From Amphiscolops sp. MND2022 (lineage: Eukaryota), in the NCBI GenBank assembly GCA_964187785.1, contig OZ076409.1, forward strand, positions 60,700,001 through 60,764,000: a stretch of DNA of 64,000 nt, given 5' to 3'. Below, one piece after another: positions 1 through 34,069 of the stretch. The first letter of the stretch is position 1, and each line of letters opens with the position of its first letter. The position numbers and the translations under genes were made by a program. The notes under the pieces are model-generated. The model saw only the letters and a list, made by a program, of their open reading frames with translations, did no database searches and was not told where the DNA came from.

Positions 1-3000
1 CAGAACAAGCCCCAGAACCAATCATTTACCATGAGGCCCGTCAACATAACCACAAGGAAATTTGATGGCAAAAGCCAAAAATTTGAATTGTTTGAAGACC
101 TTTTTCATACCATGATAAAAATGCAACCCGAGATGACAGAACAGATGAAGATTAACCACCTCCACTCCCTTCTGAGAAAAAATTGTCTCCAAACTTTCCG
201 TAACATCAACTCTTCCAACAGACAAACACTTGAAGACGTTTTAATGATTTTCCGTAGAAACAACGTCAATCCCGAATCCCAAGCTACAGCCAAACATAAA
301 TGGCACCGCCTAACATTTGACCCAGCCACTCTGAAATTGCGAGGCTTCTTGGAAGAATTAAACCAGGAGCGGAAAAAGCGTTTGGCGAAAACGCTAAAAG
401 CATGATTGATAGCTTACTCTATGCCAAACTTCCACCCAAACTCAAACGATCTGTCAACATGGCCAGATTTGAAAATGGTGAGGAAATAGTGGCACACCTA
501 GAACGCGAAATTGAACTGAACGCGCTTGAAGAATCAGAAGATTTACCTGTTGCGACCATGACATCAGCTCAGACAAAAGGTGGAGGCAACCTCCTCTCAT
601 CAGGCATTGACCCAAAAACCAATTGAACCTAGTGTAAGGAAGAAGGACACCTTTATAAAAATTGCCCAAAATTGAAAGCCAAAAAAGAAAGAGAGTCGAA
701 AGTTGGGAAAAAACCAATAATGGTATATCCTAAATGCCCCACCTGCGAAAAAAACAACCACCTAGCAGAAAGATGTTGGAAGGGAGCGGGCGCTCACCTC
801 AACCCCAAACGAAAAAAAACTGAGGACAAGGAGACAATAGACGAATCCAACAAGAAAGAAGAACCCTCAGATAACAGATCTACCATATCGAAAACACCAA
901 ATTCTATACTCAAAAATCCAAACCCAAAAAAAACTAATTTTGCCACGACTCCAAGTTTATCCGTTGACAAAAATTACCTATTTTGTCATATCTGACCCTC
1001 CATTAGCCACAAATAAAGAATATCAAAAATACACTGTTGGCATACCAACCGTTTTCTGGCAGCAACAGATGGAAGTTGCTCGAATTGAAACACAAAACAT
1101 AATTAATAACACCGATACATCTCTCCCCAAATGGGGGGATGACTATACTAACGACTTTACTACTAGATTCAGACCACTTTCCCTCATAGAAGATTACGAC
1201 CCCCTCTTATATAGATACTGACTACAACCGGGATCCTTACTGGGATGATGAATTATACGACCAACAACAACTACGATTCCATCAAAACCTATCACGTCAC
1301 ACAAATGATCAAGAAACAGACGATCCGGTGGTGAAAACAAAATAACATGCAATAATCCATCTATGGGAACCCGACCAGTCTACACCATCCGGACACTCTC
1401 AGCCCCGGGAGCGAAATGCAACACACATAAATGAGGAGACATCCGTCCTGGATGAGACCATTTTTGCTAACGTCTTTATATCTTTGGAAGGACCTCCACC
1501 TTACGTTCCTCTGTCAACTAACCTTGGCCTCAAATACAAACACAGGATGCTCTGTTTTCCCATGGACTTCGGTGCATGTACCGGTGCAAAACCGGATTCT
1601 GACCTCCGGAAAATCAAATTGATAACCCCTAAATCGATCAAAAGGAAGGTCCTCCTCCAAACTTCCCAATAATGGTAGTCAGCAGACAATTGGAAACACC
1701 AAAAGCTACAGTAGAACTCAAATTTGAAGTTGGAGGCTCTGAACTCCACGAAATTTTCGTAGTGATAGAAAACCTGACCGGACCCATGATAGGGCTCATG
1801 TTCATAGAGAAGAAACACATAGTACTGGACATGAGACAAGCGATACTAAATTTTCCTTATTTCTCCATGCAACTAGAAACCGCTGATCACAAATACTCCA
1901 ATGTCATGGAGCCGATTCTCAATCCATACGACATTACAATTCCACCTAACGACAGAGTGACAATCCAAATCCAATCTTAAATTTATTCTGAACATGCCGT
2001 GAATGGAATACTACAACCGAGTGATTCATTGCATAAAAACGGAGATGTGACATTTCGCCCGGTTATAATAACAATGACAGAATGCAACACAAAAATACAC
2101 ATAACCAATTTCACAGACCAACCATTCTGTATAAAGAAAGGACTTCATATAGCAACTTTCTCGGTACTAACTCCAGAACAACTGAAGAAAATCCAAACGG
2201 TGGATCCTGTCACAACATGGCATTCACTTCAAGAGAAAGAAGAAAATGCAGTTCAATACGTTAGTAGCCTCGTTAAAACCCACCGGAACAGCGAAGACAT
2301 GGAACAATATTGGTTCCCTACACCAGAGAATCCAGGTGATGAAACGATCTACACTCCGATTCAAAAGAGAATACTCGCAGAATTGCCTAACTTACAGCAA
2401 TTAGAACAACTCAATCCCCTAGAAAATGAACAATTAAGACAACAATTCTCGAATAATTTTGACTGGAAAGATTCCATGCTCAACAGACAAAAAATCGCGG
2501 ATATAGAAAACTTCCTGGTATAGAAACCGTCCTTTCACGACATATTTGCGCGTCACAGACTTGACATTGGAATGAATGAGGAAATTACCATCAAACTAAC
2601 ACCAAAAGACGACCCACCAGCATAGAGCCTTATTCCACCTACCCCAGTAAACCTCAAAGACGACATTATGTCTGAATTAGCACTACTACACAAATACGGA
2701 ATAATCGCAACATTACCGTTCTCAAAATACGCCACCCCTATTTTCGCACAGAAAAATCCAAACGGTAAACTGCGCCTCCTAGTAGATCTTAGAAAAATCA
2801 ATAACCTCATTTCCGACAATTACCAGAATAATAACCACTCAGTTAGTACATTAACTGACGCCGCAAAACACATGGCAGGCAAAAAGCTATTTTGCAAACT
2901 TGACTGCTCGCAAGCCTACCATTGCCTACAAACGGCTGACCAAAAGTCATTTGAATAATTAGCATTCAATTTCGCAAGCAAGACATTTTCGTAGAGGCGA

Positions 3001-5215
3001 CTTTCACAAGGATCCTGCAGATCATTGTCTGCCTTCTCCATCTCGATGCGGGAATATCTAGATCCAGGCAAACCAATGTGCCCAATTGTCGATCATATTG
3101 GGATAGCAGCCAACAGCGCGGACAAATTACTGAAAAACCTACGCGAAACGTTCAAGTGCATTCGCCAAGCCGGACTCAAGCTAACAAAGCATAAATGCCA
3201 CTTCGGAGCCAACTTCCTAAGACGAGCAATCACTCCAACAGGAGTTAAACCTCAGAAGGAAAACGTGCAAACCTTCCTAGAGAAAACCAAATTTTCAGAA
3301 TCAAAAAAAAAGATTTCCAACGATACCTTGGGTCCCTTACTTACTATAGAAATTACATCCCAGGACTATCGGAAAAAATAGCACCATTTTTCCAAATGCT
3401 CAATTTTGACGACAAGGTATTAGTTACCCAAGAACTAATACAGCATTTCAACGCCATCAATAAAGACCTAGACCGATGCGGCGAGTTGACACTCAAACAA
3501 CCATTGCCTAACAAACAATTGGCTTTAAATGACTGACGCCAGTTTTTCAGCAGCAGGATATGCCCTCCTCACGGAAGACGATCCCGAACAAAATTACACC
3601 TCATTAAGGAAAGCTTATGCTCCAATAGCATATGGCTCGAAAACATTCACACCCTCACAACTGAAGATGTCCAAATATGCCAAAGAATTTCTATCCAAAT
3701 ACTCTGCATTCAAGGAATTTGGACATATCTTCTCGGGAGCAACACAGCTCATAATCATACTTACGGACAATAAAGCGGTCACCAAATTCTTCCAAACAAA
3801 GATAGTCCCACCGCCACTATGGAACCCCTGTCACTATTATAACTGTATCATAACAGCAATTGATATTGATGTATTCTCAAGATACCTGTTCGCATACCCG
3901 TTAGTCGAGGCAACAGCAACATCGACAGCTAAAGTTCTCATTGATATAATGACCAAACACTGATACAACGCTGCTAACGGACAAAGGGTTGGTATTCACA
4001 TCAATCATCATTGAAGAAATAACCTAAGATCAGGGAACAACACTCAAATGTGCCACAACAAAACACCCACAAACTATAGGCAAACTCGAGCGAACTCACG
4101 CCTCACTCAAAACAAACCTCAAAATGGCATCAGGCGAGTATCGTCGTCAATGGCACAAATACTTACCCTTAGCAGTGTTGAACTATAAGACCACATACCA
4201 TACGACCCTTGGGTGTGAACCAACTCGCGTTTTCTACTGTCGGATACCGCACAAAATATTGGATCATGGAATAGGTATCAATCCTAATGAAAAATTCTTA
4301 CCAACAACAGAAGAATTACAAAGAAAAACGCAAATACTTATAGACCAAACAAAACACAATGTCATGCAATCGTATTTGAAATACAAAGAATATTATGATC
4401 ACAAGGCCGCGCTGCACCATTAAAAGAAAAAGACTTTTGTTTCGTCTTACAGTCTAAAGGGGTCCACCAAGTATATAAAATCCCATTCAGTGATTAAAGA
4501 TGGGTTGGTCCTTACATTGTCTGAAAAACCTTGTCTAATGACACTTACATAGTGCGCAAAATTAACACCAACAAAACACAAATCTTGCATCGAATACGCT
4601 TGAAAAAATTTTTCCTTAATAAATCGATCATCGATTCCTATCAAAATGAAAAAGTTCAAGCAGATGATGATATTATCGTACCGCAAGATTATGTGTACAC
4701 ACTAGCATGGGAAACTGACTTCGGTTACCAACTTATAGAGCATCCCGATACCGTGTCTATACCAGTGTCTGCGCGACAAGAAGCGCATGAGACGGAGACG
4801 GCTGACGAAGCGGCTACGACTCGCACACGCGAAGATAGCAATCCAAACAATCCGAATAGCTTTGACGTTAACGACAAGTCCGTTCGGAGTCACGCAACAA
4901 GACACAACGACGTCACACCACTTACTAATGAAACAAACGAACAACAACCTGTCCCGGATTTGTCAAAACAGCGTCAAACGAATGAAAACGCACCAAAAGA
5001 CGATGAAAATAAATTTGAGAAAACCAAGGAAAGTCACGTCAAAGAAACTATTGATGACTCTAAAGACTATTTAGCCGGGGGAGATATTACCGTGACCGGC
5101 AAATCAGAAAACGATAAAAATGTAAAAACAAACAAAAATAAGAGTCCTAGAGGAGGGAAATAGAACCTTCGACCTAACCCCCTCCCCCAGCTATACTGAT
5201 GATTACAGATAGACT
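1..5215 (+). mobile_element. Degraded Ty3/Gypsy LTR retrotransposon gag-pol (5' end outside window; multiple stops, frameshifts and internal deletions)
   Basis: Gag-like FDGKSQKFELFEDLF and zinc knuckle CPTCEKNNHLAERC; protease C-terminal region (IGLMF); RT motifs (PIFAQKNPNGKLRLLVDLRKIN, KLDCSQAYH); RNase H (TDASFSAAG...YGSK...KEFL...TDNKA); integrase (IDVFSRY, GKLER, YKTTYHTTLGCEP, WVGPY). Order PR-RT-RH-IN is Gypsy-type. Confidence 0.93.
1925..2165 (+). pseudogene. Degenerate dUTPase-like domain between protease and RT
   Basis: DITIPPNDRVTI and IHITNFTDQPFCIKKGLHIA resemble the N- and C-terminal strands of trimeric dUTPase folds; catalytic motifs not recognisable. Confidence 0.5.
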
Positions 5216-7274
5216 CAAAACTAAATTGATAACCCCTTTTTTCTCATTTTAATATATATTGGAATCTTGAAGGGGACATGCATTATTCTCTAGCAAATAA
5301 TTTGGTCTCCAAGCAATTGGATAAAATAAACAAAAACAGACATTTTCACTCATGACATACAGATGAACGATGAGTTTATAAACACAAACTTCTCTATAGA
5401 AATGAAAGTACATAACAAATGAATGAGTTTGAGCACGACAAGGAAAGAATTAAAACATAGAAGTTCCTTGCAAATCAGCAACACCTCGGGCTACATAAGA
5501 TTTGCTGACGCTACCAAACCATTTACGACCCTTTACTCGGCGGCTGGGTCGAAGTGGTAACAGCTCTGAACTAGCTGTTCCAGCAGGCCTAACATGTACC
5601 CGTCGGGAGCTCTCCTTTTATGAGCAAAGTGGGACAATTTAGAAAGAAAGACAGAGACACCTAGGTCCCGCGAGGACGCCTATATACTCGTCTCTGCATT
5701 CTTGTTCGCTAGTGCTCTGAACCCACCCTCTCAATTTAAAGCCACAGTAAATGTCGCTGAAACATCTCGTGCCGAAATCCAGTGGCATATCTATCATGAC
5801 GTGGGGATCGAAACAAGCCATTCCTCGAACATTGTTTGTGGTCATAGTGATATGCTTGCGGGCGCCCTCAATGAGGAAGAGATAATAATTGCGAGCCGAA
5901 TTACAAAACTCGGTACGTAGTGTGGACACAAGTCATCAAGAATTGAGCGATCTAGCTTTTTGTCGCTGAGCTCCGCGGCTGCTTTCTTTCGCAACGCAAC
6001 ATCCATCTTACTCGTGAGGTTAAACGTGTGTAGAAAACCCTCTGGCAGTAAGGCTTCTTGGCTCTCTATATGCAGGAAAGGAGGCCGGTCCAATCGTCGT
6101 CAGCAGGGACACAGCGGTCTATCAGGCACGGCACACACAACTTATGAATAAAGCGTGATAACTGACCATAGATGTGGAAACCGGCATGCCTCCTGTTGTT
6201 GAGTGAACGCTCGAACTATGTGACGACTTAAACGCGAACAACACATATAGCATAAGAAGCCTGTGAAAATTACACTATGACATATAGGAATTGTGTACAC
6301 ATCTGAGACATATAGAAACGCGAAACAACCTGGGTCATAAATAGTTAAGGATAAGTCAGGTATGTTCGGTAATGTAGACAACAGTTGTCAGAAAACTTAC
6401 AGTCGTGCACGATTCGGGAGAAGAGCTCGAGTTTGATGGTGAACAGATCAGATTGTCCATCAGGATCATCCAGTCCAAGGTCTGCGGCTGAAAGTGAACA
6501 CGAATAATAAACTAGACTTGTATTTCCTCAAAAAATCGACCAGATTGTAACTAAACTTCGTCCTAATGCCAGCCATTTCTTGGTACCGAGTTGTCTTCCG
6601 AAGGTACTCGCTCACTTGGGACCAGTGCGTTAACAGCTCGTGGCACACTAGGGGCAAAGTCATAAACTGGATTTTGCGCGCAAGAATAGCCTGAAAAGAC
6701 AACGAACTTAACGTACGTACATAGAGAATTGAGATCAAGGAAACTACAAAATACCTTATTCAGCTCATGGCACTCCAAGGTCCAGCTGAGGGACAAGCTG
6801 CCTCCAAGAGAAACTATCAGACCCTGGAGGACTGAAAAGAAATCCACCATCTCGAACACACTACGGGGGGACAACCATGAGGGTTATCACTGGAGGTTGA
6901 CAGTTTCAAAACGAAATGGTGATTGCAGGGTGTGTTTGAAAACTCCGAAATCGTCAATAGTCTGGATAAAGTCTTTGGGACAACCACAGACAGCAACCAA
7001 TTGGGGCCTGGTAGAAACAGCGGAAAGGACCCTTGACAATGACCTCTTTTCCCCAGCTAAATGAGGACTTTGTAGGCCGTATCTGCACAAGAAGGCCTTG
7101 ACGAGGCTTTCAAATTTCCAGAAGCTGATGAAGACATGCTTGAAGCACCCACACTTCCTCAAACTCTAACGCAAATTGACCAGTGGTGAGGAGCTGTTGC
7201 CCAAGATTATTGAGCAGGCAGATGAAGAAATGATACAAGACAACCTATTAAACAGAAAATACGAGTTAGGAGAG

Positions 7275-9175
7275 TGTGGAAATTTTAGTTTTTGGCGTCT
7301 GCGAAAACCCATTGTGTTGCGCGAAGTGCATACGATCGACAGAAATATAATAATCATGTTTTTAGACCGTCGTAATAGTGAAAACAGCTGAACAGTGAAC
7401 CCATGTTTCGATATGGCTTATTTGGCAAACGGAATGTAGAAAGAATAAATTTGATTGTTTGAGGAAGATAGAATTGACGCCAACAACGAATTTGTTCGAA
7501 TTAGCTAAGTTAGAATCGACCGCTTAGAACGAACATTACCAAGTTTTTCCTTTGAGAGAAAATGAGAGGATGTGAAAAAACACCACCCCCCCCGTCCCGG
7601 TGAACTACTGAACCGATCCCGCTGAAATTTGGCACACGTATACCTGAGGTGTTATGCTACTCGCCAATGAAAACGGAACCGAGCCGAGACTCCCAGTCCC
7701 GGGCTATTAGCACCGGAAGTGGCCTAGGTCGACCCCCCTATGAACTCGTCGGCCAAGCACGGAAAAAGTCGTATTATATATATGATCGATAGCCCATATG
7801 ACATTAGGCCGTTTGCGAATGTTTTGGGAACCCTACGACGCGCGTAGGAGGAGCACGGACCCTAAGTAAATAAACCCCGAACGTTATGTAAATCGCCAAC
7901 GGATGACCCGAAGATCATGAATCTTACCCGAGATGTTCACCTAGTAACACTAAGTAATATACATGCAAGATACATCGATCGATACACCACGCGCGGAGTA
8001 TTGTTTGTTTAAGGCACGCGGGACCGGACGCACGGGCCCGACCGATAAATGACATTTGACCTTGGCTTGTAACATATCAAACGAACCGGAATAATGAACG
8101 TAGTCGCTTTATAACAAGAATGAGACCGTATTTGTAACCCATGCGGGGGTAGCCGCCTTAAGTAAACAAACCATACGCATATCATGTAACTCGAAGACTA
8201 TTGACCCTAGGATGACATAACTTGGCATGTAACAACTCTGGATGAGGGCAATTAACTTCAAGGTCACCGATGGACCTCAAGGTCATTCCAGATGCAACTT
8301 AGGAACATATAGAGAAACTTGTGATAAAACATGTAAATCAGCGTCTTTAAGTGATAATTTATGCAATTCAGCCAGGCGGAACGATTCGCGATGCATTGCG
8401 CCCAAAAGGACGGAAAAGTAACCCTCACACGTAGAGAGCATGTAAACCATAAAATTGAAGGTCATTAAACGATTGGCTCGATATTGGAAATATCTTGGTT
8501 GACTTGAATTATTATTGAAATGTGAACTTTGTACAACCATTGTTGAACTATTTGTCGTTGGCGGCGAAGAATGTTTGACCGAAAAAATAACTAAGGCGCT
8601 GCCATGCCATAAAAGGAAAGGAGACACATGAAGTTAAAAGCATGCAAATAAAAGAGCGACATCGGTACAACAAAAATGCAGCTGATGAATAAATATCTCA
8701 GGGAGGGAAAAAAGACCGATTTAAGACACAAGAACGATTACGAAGTTAAGAGTAAGTTGAGCCGCGTGCGGGCAGGAAACCTACTCGAGAACGATTTGAC
8801 TTAACTGCTTTGTGAGAGCAGCGAATTAGTTACAAGTCCAGGACTTGGAAATCTTAGTGTGAATCGTGATTCTGGCACAGTCTTGTCGAGTTATTGTATA
8901 TAATTCATTCACCTGCTGTGCTATTGTTATTGTTTGATTAAGTAGTTACGTACTGTGGAAATATTCAACTTGTATTATCCAGATAACTCCTGAATTAGAG
9001 TATTAATTGCGAGTAACTTTTCAATAGTATTTTTGGAGTCGAAGCTTGAGCACCGGAGAGACTTTGTGAAAAGAGTACGCGGTACGTGGACGAAACTTAC
9101 TCACTAAAAACTAAATCTTTCTATTAGAATCGAGCAGTGGGATTCCTCTCCAACCCTCTAGCAAAAATTTCTACA
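7275..9175 (+). repeat. 5' LTR
   Basis: Starts TGTGGAAATTTT and ends AAAATTTCTACA (imperfect terminal inverted repeat); near-identical to 13889-15788. Confidence 0.97.
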
Positions 9176-9176
9176 G

Positions 9177-9194
9177 TGGCGCTCCTGGGTGGGC
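9177..9194 (+). promoter_or_regulatory. Primer-binding site, probably tRNA-Asn
   Basis: TGGCGCTCCTGGGTGGGC, 1 nt after the LTR; its reverse complement GCCCACCCAGGAGCGCCA resembles the 3' end of metazoan tRNA-Asn. Confidence 0.75.
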
Positions 9195-9382
9195 AATTTT
9201 CGTAGTTCTGTATCGCTGTTATTTTGGAATTGTTTTACTGGGACTTAGCTGTAATCCCTTGACGACGCGATCAAAACAAGCACATTATCTGATGAGGTTG
9301 ATCGACTGAGAACGTTTTCGTACGATAGAACAGAGAGGTTTCTCTATTGCAACTAGTTGGTGCCTGAAGTAACGCTTTGGGT

Positions 9383-11716
9383 ATGGAAGACGAACAGCGA
9401 CTTGCAATAATGGAGGCTGTCGCCCAAGGTGTGATACAGGGCCTCAACGGGAATGAGAATCGGCTGTTTGGCAATGGAGCAATCAGACCTGACAGCTTCC
9501 CCTCGCAGAACTATCCAGTTTGGTCCCAATGGAAAACGCACTTTTGCAGAGTTGGCAGAACAAACGGATGGACAGAGTTGTAAAGTCTACAAGCTGTGCC
9601 TGTGTGCTTGATTGGGTACGCATTGGACGAGTACAACGCTGCGCCTCGAGAACTGGGAGAGCAAGTGGATGGGGAAGATGCACCTACGTTAGCTGCACTA
9701 TTCAATCACCTGGGGAGAGAAATGGGAATGATGCGAAATGACCGTCTGGGGAAAGCAGAAATCAGACAACTGCGACAGCGACCAGAGGAAACCCTGAGGG
9801 AATTTGCCCGACGAGTGAGAAACATTGGAAAGATTGCCTACTCAGAGAAGGACCCCAACACGAGAGACGAGTTGTTTCGGGAGAACTTTCTCGAGGGTTT
9901 GAGCGACGTACAACTGGAAGTTCAGTTGTTGAAAGAAAACCCACAAACATTTGGGAATCTAGTGGACAGGGCCGTTGACTTGGAAGTTATTGCTCGAACA
10001 ACACGTGGCCATTCACGGAATGAACAAGAGCAGTACGAAGAGTTCGGAAGGCAGCAAGACTCAAGTCGTGACATCCGTGGTTATTAAGACGAACCGTGGA
10101 AAGAAGGGTTACAACAGCTCACTAGAAGAATGGACCAGATGACGCAGATGATGATGACTTTCATGGAAACTCTGTCAACAATTGTGAGGCCTGAGAAGCA
10201 GGCTGGGATGACAGACCCACCCAAACGCGAGGTCACCCCTGTGGCGACCGAACAAAAATTCAAGGGGAATTGCGGTTTTGTAGCCGATATCTGCCCTGTT
10301 TGCGATGGTTTTGGACATTTTTCCCAGCAATGCCCCAAACGGCAGGTGATGGTCGAAGACGCTCCTGAGGTGCACGGGAAGTTGACAAGAGAGAAAGCTG
10401 CACAAATTGTTGAGAGGGCCGGCTTAGCAATTGAAAGAAAAGCGCTGAACGCTGTGCGTGTGGTAGACTGTTCTGGTTGTAACAGCGGGGTTTTCGTGAA
10501 AGCCCGAATCGAGGGAAGAGAGATGGACATTTTGTTGCACACGGGAGCTGGCGTGAACGTGGTGGACTCAAGTACAATGGAATCGTTTAGACCCCCTGAT
10601 GAGGTCGAAGAATTTCGTGGAGAGTTGCGGTCTGTAGACGGTCAACCAGTGACGACTAAAAGACTAACCCGACTGAATTTGCAGCTGGGACCCTTGAAGG
10701 AGCAGGAAAAATTTGTGGTGGTTCCCCACTGCGAGCCATCCGTTATTCTAGGCTTGAACTTCGTGAAAAAGCATAGAATGATTTTTGACTTTGGGAAAGA
10801 CGAACTGTCCATACCTCCTCTGTCCCCGGAACCGCTGAAAATGAGAGTTGTTGCATCGCAATGGGGCGAAGACGGAGGAAGTTGTTACCAGCGGAGCACC
10901 AGTGACAGCCGTGAAAGCGCGGAGACTGAACCCTCACGGTCGACATCCTCCACTCAGCACTGGAGCGTTCCCGACAGCAAGAATCCAAGATGGGATTCCG
11001 GAGAGAAACCGCCACCAAAGCGATGGGACGCAATGATAGTGGACACAGATGCTAATTTCTGCATGGTATCGACAACAGAGTCTCAAAACAGGAGTGATGG
11101 CAGCGGATGCTCCATCGTTACTAGCCTGAAACCTTATCAGATGACCCTTTTTGGCGATGATGACGTCGACGGAGGACGCGGAAACCTGAAGTACAAAGAG
11201 ATCGAAGGAGACCTATTTTCGTCCAAAGGTTGTTTGGCTGACTGTTTTTCGGCAGATTTCCACATGGGGATCGGAGTTGCCAAGCAAGTCAAAACGAGTT
11301 ATCCCACTACCTATCCGAAGGGTGTCAACCACAAGAAACAGCCAGTTTTTGCGCAGTGGATTGAAGGAGAACGTCGTTACGTGTATCACTTGGTCACCAA
11401 ACAACGATACTTCGAGAAACCGACCTACGACTCCGTGGAAACGTCGCTGCAACAGATGAGAACCCACGCGGAGTGGTCTGGGGTCCACAGAATAGGCCTG
11501 TCGAGGATGGGCTGTGGCTTGGATAAACTGAATCGGAGTGAAATACGAAGCCTAATTAAAGACGTCTTCAAAGGGAGTCACGTAGCTATTACAGTGTATG
11601 TAGTCCCTCAGCAGAACCCGACTCCCAATTGCGAGACTGACGTCGAAGAAGTTGGAAGCAGAAGGGGAGAACGCCCTTCGCCGACACATTCCAGCTCGGA
11701 GTACATTGACGACTAG
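9383..11716 (+). pseudogene. Gag-CCHC knuckle-aspartic protease-macrodomain polyprotein (one frame, in-frame stops at 9581 and 10085)
   Basis: ORFs at 9377, 9596 and 10130 share a frame; gag QRPEETLREFARR/FLEGL; CPVCDGFGHFSQQC; protease LL(H)TGAG...ILGLNF; macrodomain at the C-terminus. Confidence 0.9.
11186..11599 (+). other. TARG1/OARD1 (Poa1p-like) macrodomain, ADP-ribose glycohydrolase fold
   Basis: GDLFS, LAxCxSADxxMGxGVA, YVYHLVTKQRYFEKPTY, SLQQMR, RMGCGLDKL and DVF...ITVY match hallmark motifs of the TARG1 class. Confidence 0.92.
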
Positions 11717-12668
11717 TTCGACAGGAACCAACAATCAGAACTTTGAAAGTTCAAAGAGCGAGGGTTGCGGTCTCTCCGACACAAGAGGAGCGAGAATGCA
11801 GGTTTTTTGGTCAGTCAAACGCGGAGCGGCTCAGCCGGATGCCACTGGACCGTACAAACGTGAGAAGATGATGGCTTAATGAACAACTATCACTTCGGGA
11901 GATTGACGTGTCTTTGGTTAGATGTATTTGACCCGAAACTTCGATTCGGCTTGACGACTTTTCGAAACTTAGTGAAACTTTCCTTAATCTTAATTTTTGT
12001 TTTTGTTTTTTTTTATATAAATCAGGTAACGCGCCACCCGTGAACACCTGAAACCCCCTGTGACGTTGTTTCGAAGCGAGCAGAAGGGAAGAAAGAATTT
12101 TTAATTAGCAGTGCTAGATATTAGAAATTCGGGTATTACTAAAACAACGGCGCCTCGAAACAATGTCCCCCCAAGGCTCAAGGCATGTTCTTGTGTATAA
12201 TTTTTACGACCCAACGAGACCTGTTCCTGAGGATTCCCCCTTCCAAAGAAAGTATGTCTCTTCGACGAATTATGACCATTGCCCCATGTTTTAATCGCCC
12301 TGAGATACTCTTCCATCAAAGCGCTGTTCCGCCTTGTCTATATTTTTTTTATTATCTACGATCAATCGACCTCCCCTCCCTAAAATGACTACCCCGAGTT
12401 AATGATGCGGTGAAAAATCAGAGTTTTGTACCTAGTGATGAATCGTAGCCCCCCAGATTTGCTTTGATATAGTTTTGTGCAGTATTTTTTTGTTACATTC
12501 TTTGACCCTTGCACCCTTCTCTTTATAGAAGACTCGACCAAACCCTGAATCGTACTCGTTCGTAAGCATTAAAGGGGACTTTCTCAAATTAGAGGGAGAA
12601 CTATGAATACTGTATTTCAATTATAACGAAAGAAGTCAATGATTACAGACGATGCTTATACGGATGAA

Positions 12669-13094
12669 CTAAAGTAAGAAATGTGGAGGGGTTGGCTCCC
12701 GCAGAGCACCCCAGAGTTTTTGGCGGGCAATGAGGAAACGAAGTTGTTGCACTCCCACCAGACCAATCTCCGATGTGGCTAAGTTCCTCAGAAAGATGAC
12801 AAATTCTACCCAACCAGGGCTAAGGTAGTCCAGACATAACGCGCCCAATTCGCCCTCCACGGTCAGCTGGACCTCGTGATGCTCTGCAATTTCCATACGG
12901 GTGATCTCGAACACCACGCGGAAGTACTGAGATTCCCAATACAGACTCAATAGGAAAGAACCTTGTGCCATGTTGCTATTCTCGTTTTGATATAGGCGTA
13001 GAGGAAAGCGTATGGATGTATAATTTAGCAGTACCGAAACTCCGAGCTGACGAAAGTTGACTGTGGTAAAAGAGTAAATATGTCGAGTAAACAA
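12669..13094 (-). CDS. Antisense hypothetical ORF (141 aa) inside the non-autonomous LTR element
   Basis: Open frame only; no recognisable motif. Confidence 0.25.
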   Translation of the reverse strand: MFTRHIYSFTTVNFRQLGVSVLLNYTSIRFPLRLYQNENSNMAQGSFLLSLYWESQYFRVVFEITRMEIAEHHEVQLTVEGELGALCLDYLSPGWVEFVIFLRNLATSEIGLVGVQQLRFLIARQKLWGALREPTPPHFLL

Positions 13095-13876
13095 AACTTA
13101 CAACGACAAAAATCCCACTTCAATTAATTTTTGATTCTTTGACATACTTCTGAAAGCGAATATCTAAGCAAGTAAAAGGAGAACCATGAAAACCCGTACC
13201 CGAATGTTGCTGAAAGTAATGAACTACAGGAAACAATTGTTTGCTCTCTAAACAGATCTCGAAGTGGCCCTCCAAATGAAACCTCACGAGTACGAAAGAC
13301 TTGAAAACAAACATTTTCGTTAGAGTGGATAGACTTCGCAAAATAAATTTGCCGAGCAAACAAAGACAAGAACGGGGAGATATTCACATTATTTCAATTT
13401 TGGCTGCTTAGCGAGTGTTAGTAAAACTAGCTTTTATTGAATGGCGTATATGGCATTATACTGGTCTTGGGACTGCGGAATTTGATGAAATAGTAATTCT
13501 AGAAAGTGTCGGGAGTAACATATCGCAGACAGTTTTCAATACAGGGACCTATTCATGTTACCCATCAGATAGTTCATTCTATGAAGTTTCATTGGTTCAA
13601 CATTTTCATGACTAAATAACCACAGGGTGCTACTTTAATAAAATTATGTTTAAATTGACTGATAAATATTTATCATTTCTTTTATGCTGTGTTATACTAG
13701 TTCTTGAAATCTTTAGATATCATCAATAATCGGTACCATTGTTTTTTTTGGAAATCGTTCTGAACAATGCCTAGCCCCCCAGAATCGTTGATCATGTTTA
13801 AACTGGACCCCACGATTCAGCCTATGAAAACGGTTAATTCGAAAAATGTTAGGTTTATTCGGGAGAATAAAAGTTC

Positions 13877-13888
13877 AGAAAAGAAGAG
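13877..13888 (+). promoter_or_regulatory. Polypurine tract
   Basis: AGAAAAGAAGAG immediately before the 3' LTR. Confidence 0.8.
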
Positions 13889-15788
13889 TGTGGAAATTTT
13901 AGTTTTTGGCGTCTACGAAAACCCATTGCGTTGCGCGAAGTACATACGATCGACAGAAATATAATAATCATGTTTTTAGAACGTCGTAATAGTGAAAACA
14001 GCTGAACAGTGAACCCATGTTTCGATATGGCTTATTTGGCAAACGGAATGTAGAAAGAGTAAATTTGATTGTTTGAGGAAGATAGAATTGACGCCAACAA
14101 CGAAATTGTTCGAATTAGCTAAGTTACAATCGACCGCTTAGAGCGAACATTACTAAGTTTTCCTTTGAGAGAAAATGAGAGGATGTAAAAAAACACCACC
14201 CCCCCCGTCCCGGTGAATTACTGAACCGATCCCGCTGAAATTTGGCACACGTATACCTGAGGTGTTATGCTACTCGCCAATGAAAACGGAACCGAGCCGA
14301 GACTCCCAGTCCCGGGCTATTAGCACCGGAAGTGGCCTAGGTTGACCCCCCTATGAACTCGTCGGCCAAGCACGGAAAAAGTCGTATTATATATATGATC
14401 GATAGCCCATATGACATTAGGCCGTTTGCGAATGTTTTGGGAACCCTACGACGCGCGTAGGAGGAGCACGGACCCTAAGTAAATAAACCCCGAACGTTAT
14501 GTAAATCGCCAACGGATGACCCGAAGACCATGAAACTTACCCAAGATGTTCACCTAGTAACCCTTAGAAATATACATGAAAGATACATCGATCGATACAC
14601 AACGCGCGGAGTAATGTTTGTTTAAGGCACGCGGGACCGGACGCGCGGGCCCGACCGATAAATGACATTTGACCTTGGCTTGTAACATATCAAACTAACG
14701 GAATAATGAGCGTAGTCGATTTATAACAAGAATGAGACCGTATTTGTAACCCACGCGGGGGTAGCCGCCTTAAGTAAACAAACCATACGCATATCATGTA
14801 ACTCGAAGACTATTGACCCTAGGATGACATAACTTGGCATGTAGCAACTCTGGATGAGGGCAATTAACTTCAAGGTCACCGATGGACCTCAAGGTCATTC
14901 CAGATGCAACCTAGGAACATATAGAGAAACTTGTGATAAAACATGTAAATCAGCGTCTTTAAGTGATACATTATGCAATTCAGCCAGGCGGAACGATTCG
15001 CGATGCATTGCGCCCGAAAGGACGGAAAAGTAACCCTCACACGTAGAGAGCATGTAAACCATGTACTTGAAGGTCATTAAACGATTGGCTCGATATTAGA
15101 AATATCTTGGTTGATTTGAATTATTATTGAAATGTGAACTTTGTACAACCATTGTTGAACTATTTGTCGTTGGCGGCGAAGAATGTTTGACCGAAAAAAT
15201 AACCAAGGCGCTGCCATGCTATAAAAGAAATGGAGACACATGAAGTTAAAAGCATGCAAATAAAAGAGCGACATCGGTACAACAAAAATGCGGCTGATGA
15301 ATAAATATCTCAGGGAGAGAAAAATAGACCGAATTAGGACACAAGAACGATTACGAAGTTAAGAGTAAGTTGAACCGCGTGCGGGCAAGAAACCTACTCG
15401 AGAACGATTTGACTTAACTGCTTTGTGAGAGCAGCGAATTAGTTACAAGTCCGGGACTTGGAAATCTTAGTGTGAATCGTGATTCTGGCACAGTCTTGTC
15501 GAGTTATTGTATATAATTCATTCACCTGCTGTGCTATTGTTTTTGTTTGATTGAGTAGTTACGTACTGTGGAAATATTCAACTTGTATTATCCAGATAAC
15601 TCCTGAATTAGAGTATTTTTTGCGAGTAACTTTTCCATAGCATTTTTGGAGTCGAAGTTTGAGCACCGGAGAGACTTTGTGAAAAGAGTACGCGATACGT
15701 GGACGAAACTTACTCACTAAAAACTAAACCTTTCTGTTAGAATCGAGCAGTGGGATTCCTCTCCAACCCTCTAGCAAAACTTTCTACA
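13889..15788 (+). repeat. 3' LTR
   Basis: Direct repeat of 7275-9175, TG...CA. Confidence 0.97.
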
Positions 15789-18700
15789 GAGAGGGTACCT
15801 GACAAAACAAGCGTGAAACACGACATTAACAAACAAAAGTAGTGCATGTAAATCCATATAAAGATAAACATAACTAAATCGGAACTTACTGTCATTTTCT
15901 CCTCACTCCAGTCAAAGTCGCTGAACCAACTCTGGTGTTTTTTGAAGGTCCCTACTTTTGTCCAAATGCCCCGCAACGTCACCAAGTCTCCAGAAGTCTT
16001 CAAATAATCTCCAACTAAGCACAGTTGAGAGTAATTTCGACTCCCGTTGGAAGTAGAACTGTCTCGAGTTGCCTTGAAATTTTCATAAAAGGGAAACTTC
16101 TTGCCCAACTCGACCAATTCCTCATCTATGAACTTGGGTAATTCGAGCTCCAACTCGAACTTGTCCGTTATGTTCCCCTTTTTGTCACAAACGAAATGGG
16201 TGGAGGTCTTGCTCACGGAGTCAGTCCTTCCAAGGTGGGTTAACTCCACTTTTGGTCCTTGTAAAAATGTTCACGGAATGAATAATGGCGCTTGTCTTCA
16301 GCTTCCCCCTTTTCCATAGATGGAAATATTTCTGCGCTAAAAACAAATTTGGCAATAAAAACAATGGGGGATTTTCTAAGGGCTCATGGGACCTGACACA
16401 AACACACGAGACCACTCTTACTTTCGGAAATATGTCTCCTTGAATACCTTGTCTGGCCGCTTCATTCTCTGTCGTTTTTGGGGAAGATCGCCAACCCCAC
16501 CGTTCTGGTGGCACTCTCACTTCCAATGGCCCGTGGAGTCTCGGATAATGCCTTTTTGCGGCGTGTTGCTGGAGGAATTTGTTTTTGACTCCTTCCAAAT
16601 GCTTCTAACGTCTCGAACGGCTCTGCATTTTGTCCTTCAGTGTCAGAAAGACTCGGCAAGCTCAAATCACTTTCTCCCGTCTGTATTGCTCTGCTGATAT
16701 AACTTCCAGCAACGCCACTGTCTGGACAGACATGACTGTCATTAGACGACCCGGTGAAGGACGGTAGTGGTGTCGCCGCTCTAGCTCGCCCTACTCGGAA
16801 AGACTGATCCTGGTTAGTGGCTACCTTACCTCCACTAGAGAGTCTGGATGCTCACTGCAGAAGTCCAATCATCATCTCCAAAGAGATATGTGCAGTTTCG
16901 TCACAGGCTACTCTTATTAGGTTTTAAACTTGATCTTCACTGAAGGCAACTGTGGTATGATCAGTAGGTAGCTCCACTGGGGGATTTTGCTCAAAATATT
17001 TTTTCAAAAAAGAACGACTGGGCCATGTGAGTCGCCTAAGCTGAGGGTAAGGGTCAATTGAATTCAACCCAATTTCAGTTTGATTGTCCTCTGTTTCAGT
17101 CTGCTCCGCATCAGAGGTGTCGGTTCTTAACCCGCTGAGTCGTCCAGTGGGCCGTGGTGTCTCATGTAGGACGGCATTTTGATACACTCACCAAGGATGA
17201 GCACATCAGAGTCGCTGTCGAGGATATCGCGCATAATGGTGTTGAAGGATGGTGAAGTTCGGGCTTGAAGTTGCCCTGCTGACTTGATGACTTCTGACTC
17301 ACCATGGATGATTGTTGACGTTTCCCCATGACATATGCGGGTAGGGGACTTGCTGGAAGTATCGACAACAACCGAACTGGGAATTCCCTCAGAGTTGGCT
17401 TCGCCACAATTTCCAGAAGTCGGCTCACCACCTCGAACGACCTTACGGCTAATGTAATCAAAAGCGTATAGGTTAACATCATCCCCAGAGCTTCCGCTGG
17501 ACTGGAATGCTAGAAGGGCGGGAGCTAGAGAGACTGAATTGGGGGCATGGTATTGATCTTCTTGTGAAAGTTTGGGAACAATTTGTGAGTTAGTGCGATT
17601 GGACGATGGGTGTCTTTCCGGAGATGACATTCCTAAGCGGAAGGAGATTTGATTACGCGGAACACTTCCTGAGTAAAAATCCATTTTGCCGCATAAAAAG
17701 CTTCCGGAAGCTAAATAGAAGTTTTTCCACGCAACAACAGCGTGTGTTTTGATGGAGGAAGTGCATAGTATAGGAAAGCCCTGATCAAGCTAAAGTCCTA
17801 TGCAACAAACTACGCCAATCGAGAAAACTCACCTGAAACTGGAAATCCTGAGAAGATGTGACCGGAAGTAGAACGGATGGTTCCTGGTTGAAGGCTGTTA
17901 TCTAGACAGGAAGTGAATAAGAAATGAGCCTGGATGAAGACAAAGAGCAAGAAACAATGCTTGAGAGTGGAAAGGTAACAAGTGACAGCTGCTAATCAGG
18001 AAACGAAGGTAGTAAGACATAATGATGGACAGCACAAAAATGTCTAGTGGTTTATTGAATACTGCTTGACTGAGAGGAAGTTGTGAAACAAAAGACAATA
18101 ATATGGTAAATAACTAAAACGAAATGTTGGAACAAAATCTGGAAATTATTAAAGAATGCAATTGAACCAGTAGAACTGTGTACAATACAACCCGCCTGAT
18201 TGACAAAGTAAAGGCAATGAGCAATGGACAAACGAATAGCTTTTTGTAACAATAGTTAGGTGTGAACAAATTGGAGTGGTTAATTGGAGTTCGTGGCAAC
18301 GAGACAAATAAAGGTACAGGTATACTAATGAAAGTAAGTGCGCTTAGTCTGCCAGCCTGTGCTTTAAATTGTCCGTTTGATGTCTATTTGGACAAAGCTG
18401 AACAAAGAAAAATGGAAAAGACATTAATTAAAACGAAAAAAAAATTAAAATTATTTCGACATAAAAATTAAATTCAGTAGATTAGAACTTGAAAAATTAT
18501 TAATTTATCAAAGGCATATGATTGGCTGAGAATAGTAGTAAGTCAGCTCGAATACAAATTTTAATTACCTACTTGAGGGACGATAGTTGGGGCGAAGATG
18601 AGTGGTAAACAACTGAAAGGATAATTAAAGAGGATTGAGGTGTTGTTATGAAATCCTTGAGCCAACTTAAGACAAGCACTTGAGACTCCATTCAGAAACA

Positions 18701-28138: not shown

Positions 28139-28577
28139 TATATAAAAATTCTAGCAAAGAATGCCTCTATTTGCAGGACATGATTATACAAATATATGAA
28201 GTTTACAAATGATCATGATTTCTTTGCGTCAGGTGAGTTTTAGTTTTCACAAATTACAGAAACGGGACGATTTTTTGAAAGAGTCCAACAGGTTAATCAT
28301 ATCACTATGGCTTCTTTTTCTTATTAGTCCTTCAAATGATCCAAATTTTAAGTGCTCCTCTCTCAAGTTATTGCAAAAACTGCAGTAAAAGATAAAATGC
28401 GTAGACGTCTCCTCGTGGTTGCAGATACAGTGTGGTGACGATGTTCATGATACTTGGTATTGAAAGTCTCGTAGATTGCATTGGTTTGTGAGCATCTCAA
28501 TTATCAAATTGGTAGCAAGTTTGCTGAAAGATCTTGGTATCAAAGGTTCTGTCGATTCTATTTGAGGGAAAGATTTA

Positions 28578-29176
28578 CTTATGAATAATGATGAAAAGTT
28601 GGTTTTGACAACCTGTACAAGCTCCAAAAATGGGACGCTGAACTATTTAATTGTGCTTACAAAAGTCTGAAAAAGTACTCCCCGAGACATTGGGTTGTCT
28701 GACAAAATAATTTTTTGTATGCTGAACTTTTGATGTTTTGCTGTGGTGACATTGAACTGAATCCAGGTCCTGAGATGTGCTACGAATACTTTGTCAAAGT
28801 TTCTGAGAAGTATAAAAACAACTTACGCTTTGTTCGTCTGAATTTCCAAGATCTATCTAAAAAGCCAATCCAATTGAAGTCTTTTATCAACGACATGGGC
28901 AAAACGCTATTATTGGGATTTCTGAAAGTTGACTCACTACCAACGATAAAATATCTTCATGTAATGTGTCTCCAAAAACTCATAAACTTTTCAGACGTGA
29001 CAGAAGTTCAACTAACTGTAAGTAGGGTGGAGGAGTAATGCTTTTGTACCCTTGAAACTAGCTAGCTCTCAGGGAACGTGATGATTCAAATCTTTTCGAT
29101 AACTCAACTTTTGAATCGCTATGGGTAGAATGTCGCTGTAGTTTTTTAAAAACCGTGAGTCTAAAATACTCTTGAA
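28578..29176 (+). mobile_element. L2/CR1-like LINE fragment, copy 1 (ORF1 end, 2A-like motif, EN start)
   Basis: Near-identical to 34522-34890 plus 37010-37250, and to 39274-39876. Confidence 0.85.
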
Positions 29177-30944
29177 TATATGTCCACACGGGGATTACCA
29201 CGCAATTCATAAGTTTCAAAATGGTGGAAGGCGTGATGAATTGATTTTGTACAAGAGGTTCCAAAACTCCATGGCTTTTTCTGCTTTTCTCGAATTGTGC
29301 TCGAAAATTCAGTTTGTTATCGATTTTGATACTGAGCGCTGTTGACTCTGTCGCGAACTTTATTGTGTTTCCTTGCAACACTATATTCTTTGTAGGTTCT
29401 CGGATTTCTTCACGGATACTTGAAAAGATGACAACTTCTGTTTTCGTCACCGAGATTTTAAGACGCCACTTTCCAATCCATTTTGTAATTTCTTCGCAAT
29501 CTTTTTGAAGATGCGAAAGAACTTCTTCTATCGAGTCACCTGCTGAAACATGTGTGGCGTCATCGGCGTACTTTTCAGTTTTACCTTTGCATTCTTGGAA
29601 CATTTCTGCAATGTAAAAGATAAATAAGATTAGGGAGAGAATGCTTCCTTGAGGGAGGCCAACTTCTGGCTGGAAGCTTTCTGATCGGTTCTCGTCTATA
29701 TCGATGTAAACGTTTCTGTTTCGTAGATAATGGTCAATGATGTTCAAAATGTAGCTGTTTATTCCTGCTTCACGGAGTTTGTACATGAGACCGTCAATCC
29801 AAATCGAGTCGAATGCTTTCTCGAGGTCGATGAAAAGGGCAGCCGCCACTTTTCCTCGCTGAATAATATTTTGAATATTGTCTAAGAGTTTATAAATGCA
29901 TCTACCAGTGCCTCTCTGTTTTTTTATTCCTTCTTGGCTGTCATCGATCAGTCCGTTTGCCTCCAAGTCGTTTCTCAATCGTCTCTCTATTATGCGTTCA
30001 AACAGCTTTCCTACGTAGGAAGTGAGTGTAATTGGTCTGTAGCTGTTTGCGATATTATAGTCATCTTTGTGAGGTTTTCGGAGGAAAATGACTTTACCTA
30101 AACTCGAAATGTAGGTGCCTGCATGTAAGCAGAGGTCAAAAAGCTTGAGGCAGGCAGTTTTGAAGAAAGTTCCGGTGTGACGAAGCATGAGTGGATGTAT
30201 GCCATCTGGGTCGGAACTTCTTTCTTATTTGAGATTCCTTCAGAGCGTTGTCAAGTTCTTCTTCTCTTATCTGTATGCTCGGTGGTTGCAAATAATCCGG
30301 ATGGAGATTTGCCGTGACTTTGTCTTCGTCATTTCTCAGCCAAGATTCGTCAAACATATTTCCGCGAAGGTGACTGTCGAAGAAAAACGTAGAGCGAAGA
30401 TGTTCAAACTTATCAGCGTCACTATCTAGAACTTTGCCATTTGAAATAAAACATCCCCTTGGTATTGTTTCTCTGGTACGAGTAAACAAATTTTTGGCTT
30501 TCCAGAAATCTGAGCCCTTGCTGGCGTTTAGGGTTTCTGCACAAGTTTTATAATGCTCAGCTTTAGACTTCATCAAGGTAGTCTGAAATTGTCGTTTGAG
30601 GATTTCGTAATTGAAGGTTTTATGGGGTCCGATCTGAGTTTCATTTTTTCTGGCTTTTCGGAGTTGAAGTGAATGCATTTTCAACTCTTCATTAAAGTAT
30701 GGCTTTGAGTGTGAAGTGATTTGCTTGAGAGGTATAGTAAGATTGGCTGCTTCGCTGATACTTTGCAGCAGGATGCCCCATAAACATGTAGCATCATAGC
30801 ATTCGCCAATTTCAGGCCATCGAGATTGAACGCAATTTTCTAGGGTTTCCCTCCATTTTTCCCAGTCGGTTTTCTTGAGGTCTTTTACATGAGTGGATCT
30901 GCTGTTTCCTGCGATGTCGAATGTGGCAATAACTAGGTAATGGC

Positions 30945-31504
30945 GGTTACCAGTCACTTGGCTTAATACCATTTGGCTTAATTTTTTCGTCGAGTCATTT
31001 GGCTTAAAAATTTTAAGCCAAGTGACCACAAAATTAAGCCAACTCCATTCCAACTCAAGGAATAAATATGTCAACTCCCGGAAATATCATAATGTGGGGC
31101 ATATGCGGTGTATGCACGCTCGCCCTCACCGTCGCAAAGACCAGCTCCCACTACGATCGCTTCGCGATCTTCGTTCCCGCTAGGTCTTTGCTCCTGTTCG
31201 ACCTCGCTTAGCAAGATGGAAATATAAGCGGCCCCAAGGGGCCGCAGGGCACTAGAGGAAATGGGGACATACCCGAGGGGTACTTGATATGACATGTTAT
31301 AATAATACGCTGACTACGTTATAAAGATAAATTCGACAAAATCTGCCACGTGTTTTCAACTAAGTGGTTTTTAAGTCAAATGACTTTTTAAGCCAAGTGA
31401 CCAATACCCGAGACACTTAGCTTAAAAAAATTAAGCCAAGTGACCAATTGTATTAAGCCAAGTGACTTTAAGCCAAATGGCATTAAGCCAAGTGACCATT
31501 TACC
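30945..31504. mobile_element. MITE with TTAAGCCAAGTGAC subrepeats, inserted in LINE-B
   Basis: ~37-bp TIRs; 8-bp TSD GTAATGGC (30937-30944, 31505-31512); removal restores LINE peptide YTGAPNRGHYLV. Confidence 0.9.
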
Positions 31505-33149: not shown

Positions 33150-33323
33150 ATGATTTGCCACCAAGAAGTTTTAATGTGGTTTCTTCCCACGATCCTGTGT
33201 ATCACACTGGTAGCTGTTCTACAAGTTCATGTTGAAGCGAAGAATATCGTTTTGGAATCAAGATCTGCCCAATCTGAAGTCCAATCTCTCGCAGAAAGAC
33301 ATGATTTCCTGGTGATCAAACGG
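33150..33323 (+). CDS. Proprotein convertase (S8B kexin/furin family) exon 1: signal peptide and start of prodomain
   Basis: Hydrophobic signal LMWFLPTILCITLVAVLQVHVEA; prodomain-like LAERHDF; donor CGG|GTTAGT in phase 0, matching exon 2. Confidence 0.7.
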
Positions 33324-33534
33324 GTTAGTGAATTAGCAATCGTTCAGCTCTGTTAAATGAAAAGATGGAACATGAAGGAGCTCCCGGTTGATAATACAAA
33401 TCTAAATGAATGATAATACAAATACACTGAACCAATCAAATTTTAAACTTTCAAAGCTGTAGGAAATATTGGAGAATCTGCAACTGATTCATTCCAATCT
33501 TTCGAAGTATGATTGCCCTTTTCCCTACATGAAT

Positions 33535-33610
33535 TGCGCTCGGCGGTTAAGGCGGATTTTCAGGTGTGTCGACGACCTGAGAAGCAGAAATACGGGGTTC
33601 GAGTCCCGCA
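33535..33610 (+). repeat. tRNA-derived (SINE-like) sequence
   Basis: A-box-like GGCGGTTAAG and B box GGTTCGAGTCCC followed by a T-run; no clean cloverleaf. Confidence 0.45.
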
Positions 33611-34069
33611 TTTTTTTTTAGTTTTTCGGCATTATGCTAATTTTTTAAACCGAATTCCTTCGTTTTTTTTCAGCTCAAAAAAGTCGTTCACGAGCGTAGA
33701 GGGACACCTTAGGTTTTTTGGCTTACTGAACCATTTTTTGAGAATTAAACAAAATTTCTATACTATTTTTAGATTTTGAGGTCTTCTGTGGGACTAAGAA
33801 GAGGTTTCTCAATAATTGTGGAAAAGACCTTCTTCAAGTTGTTGTGATGAACTTATTAAATAGCCTCGGCTGTTTTATAAGTCTTTTCAGATTAATTGTT
33901 AAAACGACCATCAAGATGCGTCCATCTCGTACAAATTAAACCTCAGCGCAAAACACAGCGAAGAAAGGTAATCATCTGGTCGAATGCACAGGGCCCGGAG
34001 TTGATGGGAGCGGCTGTGTCATCTGGACCAACAGCTGGGTACCAACGTTGATTCCCAAAAACTTTAGGC

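What the first reader, a model, noticed from the sequence alone, without database searches (positions are those of the whole stretch)
7275..15788. Non-autonomous LTR element whose polyprotein is Gag-protease-TARG1-type macrodomain in place of RT/RH/IN
Seen: a structurally complete element (LTRs, TSD, PBS, PPT) with one reading frame running from gag through a CCHC knuckle and protease into a macrodomain (11186-11599); no RT, RNase H or integrase is visible. The VTK lysine and GCGLD aspartate are present. Established: these correspond to the catalytic Lys and Asp of TARG1/OARD1, which removes ADP-ribose from acidic residues and from nucleic acids, and viral macrodomains counter PARP-mediated defence. 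Inference: this may be a helper-dependent retroelement family that packages a de-ADP-ribosylating anti-defence enzyme in its particle, released by its own protease. This copy has two nonsense codons and a protease DTG>HTG change, so it is probably dead. Macrodomains have been reported in some retroelements, so novelty needs checking.
Basis: partly seen in the sequence, partly recalled or inferred. Interest (0 to 1): 0.85.

Follow-up and report, generated by a model that had tools for sequence, protein, structure and literature searches.

The report
Pol-less retrotransposon keeps ADP-ribose eraser
A multi-copy family of jumping genes encodes shell protein, protease and a predicted ADP-ribose-erasing enzyme in one protein that has no reverse transcriptase or integrase, and it keeps that enzyme's catalytic residues, which likely means it strips host ADP-ribose tags from retrotransposon RNA or proteins while borrowing a helper element's copying machinery.

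Summary
Confirmed and extended. The element has 1.9-kb LTRs (96.9% identical), a 5-bp TSD, PBS and PPT. One frame runs Gag-knuckle-protease-TARG1 macrodomain (PDB 2eee, E 8e-25), and there is no trace of RT, RNase H or integrase. This copy is dead, but it is not a one-off. A search gave 18 clusters with 186 member sequences; 40 of 81 fetched hold all three domains in one ORF, and 40 of 40 keep TARG1's catalytic Lys and Asp. Against a diverged sister family the macrodomain is 73% identical and the adjacent linker 35%. Copies are recombination mosaics.

New here: the macrodomain is sister (99/93) to macrodomains inside the pol of autonomous Gypsy elements (RT-RNaseH-macro-integrase). So it is an old retroelement module, not a fresh host capture, and it was kept when RT and integrase were lost. 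That argues against an integrase-tether role and for an enzyme acting in the particle or in trans, made 1:1 with Gag. Activity, substrate and helper are untested. No DNA of other copies was available, so a downstream pol in them is not strictly excluded. Macrodomains are known in fish ERVs; this layout was not found in print.

The parts
7270..7274 (.). 5' target-site duplication GAGAG
7275..9175 (+). 5' LTR (TG...CA), 96.9% identical to the 3' LTR
9177..9194 (+). Primer-binding-site-like stretch starting TGG, 1 nt after the LTR; resembles the complement of a tRNA-Asn 3' end (recalled, not tested)
   Evidence: no tRNA gene in the window
9383..10291 (+). Gag (capsid region and spacer), broken by nonsense codons at 9581-9583 and 10085-10087
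   Evidence: residues 1-480 of intact copy P0005 resemble Gypsy Gag-protease clusters (0.90-0.93)
10292..10333 (+). CX2CX4HX4C zinc knuckle
   Evidence: His and last Cys in 40 of 40 other copies
10478..10807 (+). Aspartyl protease; the catalytic residue is lost in this copy and shared by 40 of 40 other full copies
10808..11182 (+). Variable Ser/Pro-rich linker of 125 aa with no RT or RNase H similarity
11183..11605 (+). TARG1/OARD1-type macrodomain; catalytic Lys at 11399-11401, Asp at 11522-11524
11606..11879 (+). C-terminal tail; early stop at 11714-11716 and a frameshift in this copy; most other copies end about 11876
11880..13876 (+). Non-coding 3' region of about 2 kb, with no pol remnant and no Rfam match
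13877..13888 (+). Polypurine tract
13889..15788 (+). 3' LTR (TG...CA)
15789..15793 (.). 3' target-site duplication GAGAG

Best explanation
This is a dead copy of a multi-copy Ty3/gypsy-type family whose single protein is Gag-protease-TARG1 macrodomain with no RT or integrase; it likely borrows both from an autonomous helper, and its macrodomain is predicted to be an active ADP-ribose eraser that would be packed with every Gag and would likely clear host ADP-ribose marks from element RNA, cDNA or proteins. SHOWN: the anatomy; the family; conserved catalytic residues; constraint on the macrodomain; mosaic copies; shared ancestry of the macrodomain with those in RT-RNaseH-macro-integrase pol proteins. 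INFERRED: (1) the RNA is translated as one ORF, so the macrodomain is made 1:1 with Gag, whereas in the autonomous relatives the ORF begins at the protease and pol is presumably made at a lower level; (2) Gag forms particles that take in helper RT and integrase; (3) the protease frees the macrodomain; (4) it hydrolyses ADP-ribose through Lys and Asp as TARG1 does, with modified single-stranded nucleic acid the favoured substrate because the basic RNA-docking residues are partly kept; (5) PBS, PPT and LTR ends let the helper copy and integrate the RNA. Origin: loss of RT-RNaseH and of integrase on either side of the macrodomain in an old autonomous lineage (about 55%), or transfer of the module onto another Gag-protease (about 35%).
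For: 18 clusters, 186 members. 40 of 81 fetched proteins hold Gag+PR+macro in one ORF; 29 of the 37 main-group ones end at the same C-terminus, which matches window DNA at 11733-11876. 0 of 81 hit RT, RNase H or integrase positions of a pol profile. K84, R86 and D125 equivalents in 40, 39 and 40 of 40. Variable columns: macro 26 of 141, linker 54 of 125, p 1.5e-5. Identity to sister P0015: macro 103 of 141, linker 44 of 125 (p 5e-10), protease 65 of 110 (p 0.02). Four-gamete failures rise from 3% to 60% with distance. Macro tree: family sister to 7 pol-borne macrodomains, 99/93 (97, 90). Autonomous P0243, P0244, P0245 (16, 7, 80 members) carry PR-RT-RH-macro-IN. TARG1 chemistry and RNA-base substrates: PMC9967889 passages; bioRxiv 10.64898/2026.03.31.715305 abstract and section 7.
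Against: No activity, expression or particle data. No DNA for any other copy, so independent TSDs, dN/dS and the absence of a downstream pol ORF in other copies are not shown. Some of the 186 members are fragments or may be allelic duplicates. The family protease is only 25-32% identical to those of the autonomous macro-bearing elements (which share 56-71% among themselves), no closer than to an unrelated Gypsy (33%), so no helper or direct parent is identified. Linker and tail show no clear homology to the pol flanks (best z 2.8 in 22 comparisons). Of TARG1's three RNA-docking residues only R86 is well kept; R126 is K/R in 17 of 40 and K50 is basic in 3 of 40, and the sister's macrodomain has net charge 0. 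No ADP-ribosylation defence against retrotransposons is shown for this host.
Confidence: 0.55

Rival explanations
1. Division of labour without a defence role: the family supplies Gag, protease and a macrodomain that does housekeeping for the particle (for example clearing PARP1-made ADP-ribose at cDNA ends or integration gaps), in a two-component system with an RT/integrase provider.
For: Wheat Fatima subfamilies are proposed to split gag-protease and RT-integrase between them (PMC6097303 passage). TARG1 acts at DNA damage sites (PMC4695847 passage). The conservation data fit this equally well.
Against: The autonomous elements found already carry their own protease and macrodomain. Most Gypsy elements integrate without one (own knowledge). 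Scattered captures at four positions look more like a conflict.
Confidence: 0.2
2. The family is autonomous with the layout gag-PR-macro followed by RT-RNaseH-integrase in a second frame, and the window copy is an internal deletion derivative.
For: Only proteins, not DNA, were seen for other copies. The longer-form search covered 1456-4155 aa and the near search 427-1362 aa; a separate pol ORF would not share words with the query.
Against: No pol remnant in the 2.2 kb behind the ORF. P0023 reads on in line with window DNA past the usual stop. The sister's longest contig is 4375 bp, close to the 4.7-kb interior here, while the autonomous P0244 cluster lies on 10-13 kb contigs (circumstantial).
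Confidence: 0.12
3. The macrodomain is a reader or tether that targets particles or Gag to ADP-ribosylated chromatin or granules, not an eraser.
For: In P0127, P0150 and P0208 the macrodomain lies behind integrase, where chromodomains lie.
Against: The family has no integrase to tether. Both catalytic residues are in 40 of 40 copies and Lys plus Asp in 8 of 9 pol-borne macrodomains checked (P0234 has Asn).
Confidence: 0.08
4. The macrodomain is a neutral passenger, kept only because it lies in the Gag-protease ORF.
For: Some copies have lost or truncated it (P0013, P0016, P0019).
Against: It lies behind the protease, where a stop would cost nothing. It is about twice as conserved as the linker and more than the protease against the sister family.
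Confidence: 0.05

Closest known systems
Non-autonomous gag-protease LTR subfamilies (wheat Fatima RLC_famc1.4/1.5, PMC6097303, passages read)
   Same: LTR element with gag and protease ORFs, no RT or integrase, proposed to be complemented by an autonomous subfamily.
   Different: No macrodomain in the passages read; plant host; the partner subfamily is known there and not here.
TR-GAG elements (PMC4350172, start of abstract and passages read)
   Same: LTR, PBS, PPT, a single ORF with Gag, no RT, RNase H or integrase.
   Different: TR-GAG is under 4 kb and was selected as lacking protease; this element is 8.5 kb with a protease and a macrodomain.
Human TARG1/OARD1/C6orf130 (PDB 2eee, 4j5r)
   Same: E 8e-25 over the whole domain; K84, R86 and D125 equivalents kept.
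   Different: Fused to Gag-protease; K50 and R126 equivalents only partly kept; tree places it with retroelement macrodomains, away from shark OARD1 (P0093).
Fish epsilon-like endogenous retroviruses with macro domain (Basta et al. 2009, seen only as cited in PMC4977317)
   Same: A retroelement carrying a macrodomain.
   Different: Retroviruses with pol; the macrodomain class was not seen, as the primary paper is not held.
Autonomous Gypsy pol with RT-RNaseH-macro-integrase (P0243, P0244, P0245, P0234; unnamed records found here)
   Same: Sister macrodomain, 46-52% identical, catalytic residues kept.
   Different: Full pol in an ORF that starts at the protease; protease only 25-32% identical.

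Membership tests
LTR retrotransposon | TG...CA LTRs, TSD, PBS, PPT | tested here: met
Ty3/gypsy (Metaviridae) | Gypsy-type Gag and aspartyl protease | tested here: met
   Pfam PF13650/PF13975; Atlas Gypsy Gag-protease clusters; weak Gag and protease match to Gypsy P0083
Ty3/gypsy (Metaviridae) | RT phylogeny and PR-RT-RH-IN order | not testable with these tools
   The element has no RT or integrase; placement rests on Gag, protease and the macrodomain's relatives
Non-autonomous LTR family | No RT, RNase H or integrase in the element | tested here: met
   Whole window copy; ORF of 81 of 81 fetched members. DNA behind the ORF of other copies not seen
Non-autonomous LTR family | Many independent insertions with different TSDs | tested here: inconclusive
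   Many distinct proteins on different contigs; flanks not available
Non-autonomous LTR family | Autonomous partner sharing PBS and LTR ends | not testable with these tools
   No DNA for P0243-P0245 (one search found none)
TR-GAG | Under 4 kb, Gag only, no protease | tested here: not met
   8.5 kb with protease against the definition in PMC4350172
TARG1/OARD1 macrodomain | Whole-domain homology with catalytic Lys and Asp | tested here: met
TARG1/OARD1 macrodomain | ADP-ribosyl hydrolase activity | not testable with these tools
   needs an assay

The most novel reading that the evidence does not exclude
A lasting class of helper-dependent retrotransposons whose particles are ADP-ribose-eraser delivery vehicles: having shed RT and integrase, they make one TARG1 enzyme per Gag to undo a host PARP defence that ADP-ribosylates retroelement RNA or cDNA, shielding themselves and perhaps their helpers. 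Repeated, independent TARG1 captures by other Gypsy lineages would then mark an unrecognised, widespread ADP-ribosylation defence against LTR retrotransposons.
Probability: 0.35. Interest if true: 0.88.

Novelty: new variant of a known kind. Interest (0 to 1): 0.68.

Why it matters
Viral macrodomains are the clearest evidence that hosts use ADP-ribosylation against RNA viruses; nothing comparable was found in print for LTR retrotransposons. This family is a natural experiment: it separates the macrodomain from RT and integrase and still conserves its catalytic residues, so the benefit does not need a link to either enzyme. It gives a small, expressible domain with which to ask directly whether retroelement RNA or cDNA is ADP-ribosylated, just as TARG1 has been reported to reverse RNA-base ADP-ribosylation. 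It also shows that a non-autonomous element may keep a costly enzyme rather than being a stripped parasite.

Tried and rejected
No whole genome is held, so copy counting by LTR, TSD comparison, dN/dS and tRNA matching could not be run. Sequencing runs: none was listed. Locus scans found no family DNA: viral contigs with P0005, P0243, P0015, GTDB genomes; metagenome contigs gave one distant macrodomain at 27% (L001). Longer fused forms: 1 weak hit among 7976 candidates, an unrelated Gypsy; weak evidence. Single-sequence AlphaFold of the macrodomain: pLDDT 40, uninformative, not searched. Atlas search with the RH-macro-IN part: all under 0.8, no lead. Rfam: 0 matches. Pfam Macro missed the window and P0005 macrodomains, which is why these ORFs look unannotated. 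Residue labels were offset; counts quoted come unless stated. Rejected: one-off deletion of a P0243-type element; fresh capture of a host-type TARG1 (tandem-macro P0085 and shark OARD1 fall outside the clade; no AU test was run); the neighbouring decayed Gypsy as parent (21-25% RT identity to the macro-bearing pols, no macrodomain). Literature: 10 full-text searches on macrodomain, macro domain, TARG1 or Appr-1 with retrotransposon, gypsy, ERV or retroelement, and on non-autonomous gag-protease elements; listings showed no description of this layout. Basta 2009 and Sharifi 2013 are not held. No supplements were read; Repbase, GyDB and subscription journals were not searchable.
Full report
OBSERVATION. 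The element is as described. The LTRs (7275-9175, 13889-15788) begin TG, end CA and match at 1841 of 1899 bases (K2P 0.031); GAGAG flanks both ends; a TGG-starting PBS-like stretch and a 12-purine PPT are in place. A 5-base match of the flanks has a chance of about 1 in 1000. One frame from 9383 to 11716, read with X at two nonsense codons, holds Gag, a CX2CX4HX4C knuckle, an aspartyl protease, a 125-aa linker and a macrodomain. Pfam misses the macrodomain, but it matches human TARG1 at E 8e-25, with the Lys and Asp aligned to TARG1's and 41 residues apart. K84 as nucleophile and D125 as resolving residue come from PMC9967889 (passages) and bioRxiv 10.64898/2026.03.31.715305 (section 7); the offset between PDB and human numbering is recalled. 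A pol profile finds nothing in the linker, leader or 2.2 kb behind the ORF, while it finds the decayed Gypsy nearby. This copy is dead: two nonsense codons, a lost protease catalytic residue, a third early stop, a tail frameshift and one changed invariant macrodomain residue.

FAMILY. The protein search returned 18 clusters at 58-100% identity with 186 member sequences, all from unnamed assemblies (one is the window's own ORF). I fetched 81 of them. Forty hold Gag, protease and macrodomain in one ORF: 37 in the main group and 3 in a diverged sister cluster, P0015; the other 41 are fragments or truncated copies. Of the 37, 29 end at the same C-terminus, which matches window DNA just behind the early stop. 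None of the 81 matches RT, RNase H or integrase positions of the pol profile, and no longer fused form was found (weak evidence). The sister lies on contigs of at most 4.4 kb, unlike the long contigs of the main group, which suggests a second host or assembly; that is inference. I could not get DNA for any other copy, so the pol-less state is shown for the whole element only here, and for the ORF elsewhere.

CONSTRAINT. The catalytic Lys and Asp are in 40 of 40 full copies, the protease Asp too; among 60 members covering that part (the window's own ORF included) the Lys is in 60 and the Asp in 59. Columns with two well-represented residues: Gag 13 of 205, protease 22 of 110, macro 26 of 141, linker 54 of 125 (macro against linker p 1.5e-5; against protease p 0.75). 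Against the sister: Gag 80%, macro 73%, protease 59%, linker 35%, tail 22%. These are amino-acid proxies, not dN/dS, and the copies are related, so the p-values overstate independence. The domain lies behind the protease, where a stop would not harm Gag or protease, so passive retention is unlikely. Pairs of informative sites fail the four-gamete test in 17 of 587 cases within 20 residues and 764 of 1264 beyond 300. That is recombination between copies, as expected from co-packaged RNAs and template switching; gene conversion could also give it.

ORIGIN OF THE MACRODOMAIN. Among 1.8 billion representatives 2291 proteins matched, and the best 150 were seen. Close outsiders included fragments of Gypsy pol with the macrodomain between RNase H and integrase (P0088, P0092, P0234). 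A targeted search gave full pols P0243, P0244 and P0245 (16, 7 and 80 members; PR-RT-RH-macro-IN). In a 164-row FastTree, a 53-row quick tree and a 37-row careful IQ-TREE (rows chosen by me from the 164), the family groups with these: support 97, 90 and 99/93. In the careful tree it is sister to all seven. Identity is 46-52% for the macrodomain but 25-32% for the protease, against 52-64% and 56-71% among the autonomous elements. Their ORF starts at the protease, while here Gag and protease share a frame. So the module is old retroelement property; the family either lost RT-RNaseH and integrase around it long ago or took it by recombination. That these autonomous elements share the window's host is not shown. 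Five further Gypsy proteins carry TARG1-type domains elsewhere: between RNase H and integrase (P0223), behind integrase (P0127, P0150), behind a chromodomain (P0208) and at the end of RNase H in a Nucella protein (P0246). They fall outside this clade and apart from each other, with modest support, which suggests repeated capture.

MECHANISM. Most likely the RNA is translated into Gag-PR-macro, assembles into particles with RT and integrase from a helper, the protease frees the macrodomain, and the enzyme removes ADP-ribose. All these steps are inferred. TARG1 was reported to reverse uracil-N3 and guanine-N1 ADP-ribosylation of RNA, using a basic surface of K50, R86 and R126. The family keeps R86 (39 of 40) and basic residues on both sides of K50 (39 and 40 of 40), but K50 itself is basic in 3 of 40 and R126 in 17 of 40. 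A nucleic-acid substrate is plausible, not shown. The useful logic is that a tether role for integrase cannot explain retention in an element with no integrase, and that fusion to Gag would raise the dose. Whether the marks removed are defensive or housekeeping is open.

COMPARISON AND NOVELTY. Gag-protease-only subfamilies are described in wheat (PMC6097303, passages) and Gag-only TR-GAG elements in plants (PMC4350172, passages); the element fails the TR-GAG definition. Macrodomains are reported in fish epsilon-like ERVs (PMC4977317, passage citing Basta 2009; the primary paper was not seen). A survey of chromatin domains in transposons (10.1101/2021.11.30.470311, passages) showed no macro fusion in the passages read. 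Ten searches found no pol-less Gag-PR-macro family and no account of TARG1 in Gypsy pol; Repbase, GyDB and most subscription journals were out of reach, and automatic annotations already flag such domains (P0127's name), so the pol-borne form may be known to curators. An earlier AI note (e1-7470572) describes a bacterial-type macrodomain between gag and protease in another genome; it is a lead only.

VERDICT. Real feature; a new variant of non-autonomous LTR retrotransposon that carries a conserved predicted eraser enzyme. Interest 0.68; 0.88 if the counter-defence reading holds (probability about 0.35).

Noticed in passing
P0243, P0244, P0245, P0234 (unnamed assemblies): A radiation of autonomous Gypsy families, one with 80 members, whose pol carries a TARG1-type macrodomain between RNase H and integrase with catalytic Lys kept. 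Worth its own study.
   Followed up: partly
P0223, P0127, P0150, P0208, P0246: TARG1-type macrodomains at four different positions in unrelated Gypsy polyproteins, scattered in the tree; P0208 has integrase-chromodomain-macro followed in frame by a weak rhabdovirus-glycoprotein-like domain.
   Followed up: partly
window 1-5163: A decayed, unrelated Gypsy element (RT and integrase remnants with stops and frameshifts, no macrodomain hit).
   Followed up: partly
window 7268-7274 and 13882-13888: The 5' flank resembles the end of the PPT (6 of 7 bases), so the target site looks like the element's own PPT end; chance or a target preference.
   Followed up: no
window 28569-39848: Several near-identical (96-99%) pieces of a LINE-like element with RT (29058-30224, 37337-38710, minus strand) around an unrelated 423-aa ORF at 34874-36145 with no Pfam hit.
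   Followed up: no
window 42733-43506, 48256-48435, 53576-54219: A roughly 172-bp tandem repeat family in separate short arrays.
   Followed up: no
window 15737-16270 (-) and 17127-17789 (-): Stop-free frames of 177 and 220 aa beside the insertion site with no Pfam match.
   Followed up: no
P0107, P0143, P0153, P0210, P0132, P0177: TARG1-type domains fused to uracil-DNA glycosylase, DNA ligase, PNKP, XPG nuclease and NADAR domains in other organisms, in line with a role on modified nucleic acid.
   Followed up: no
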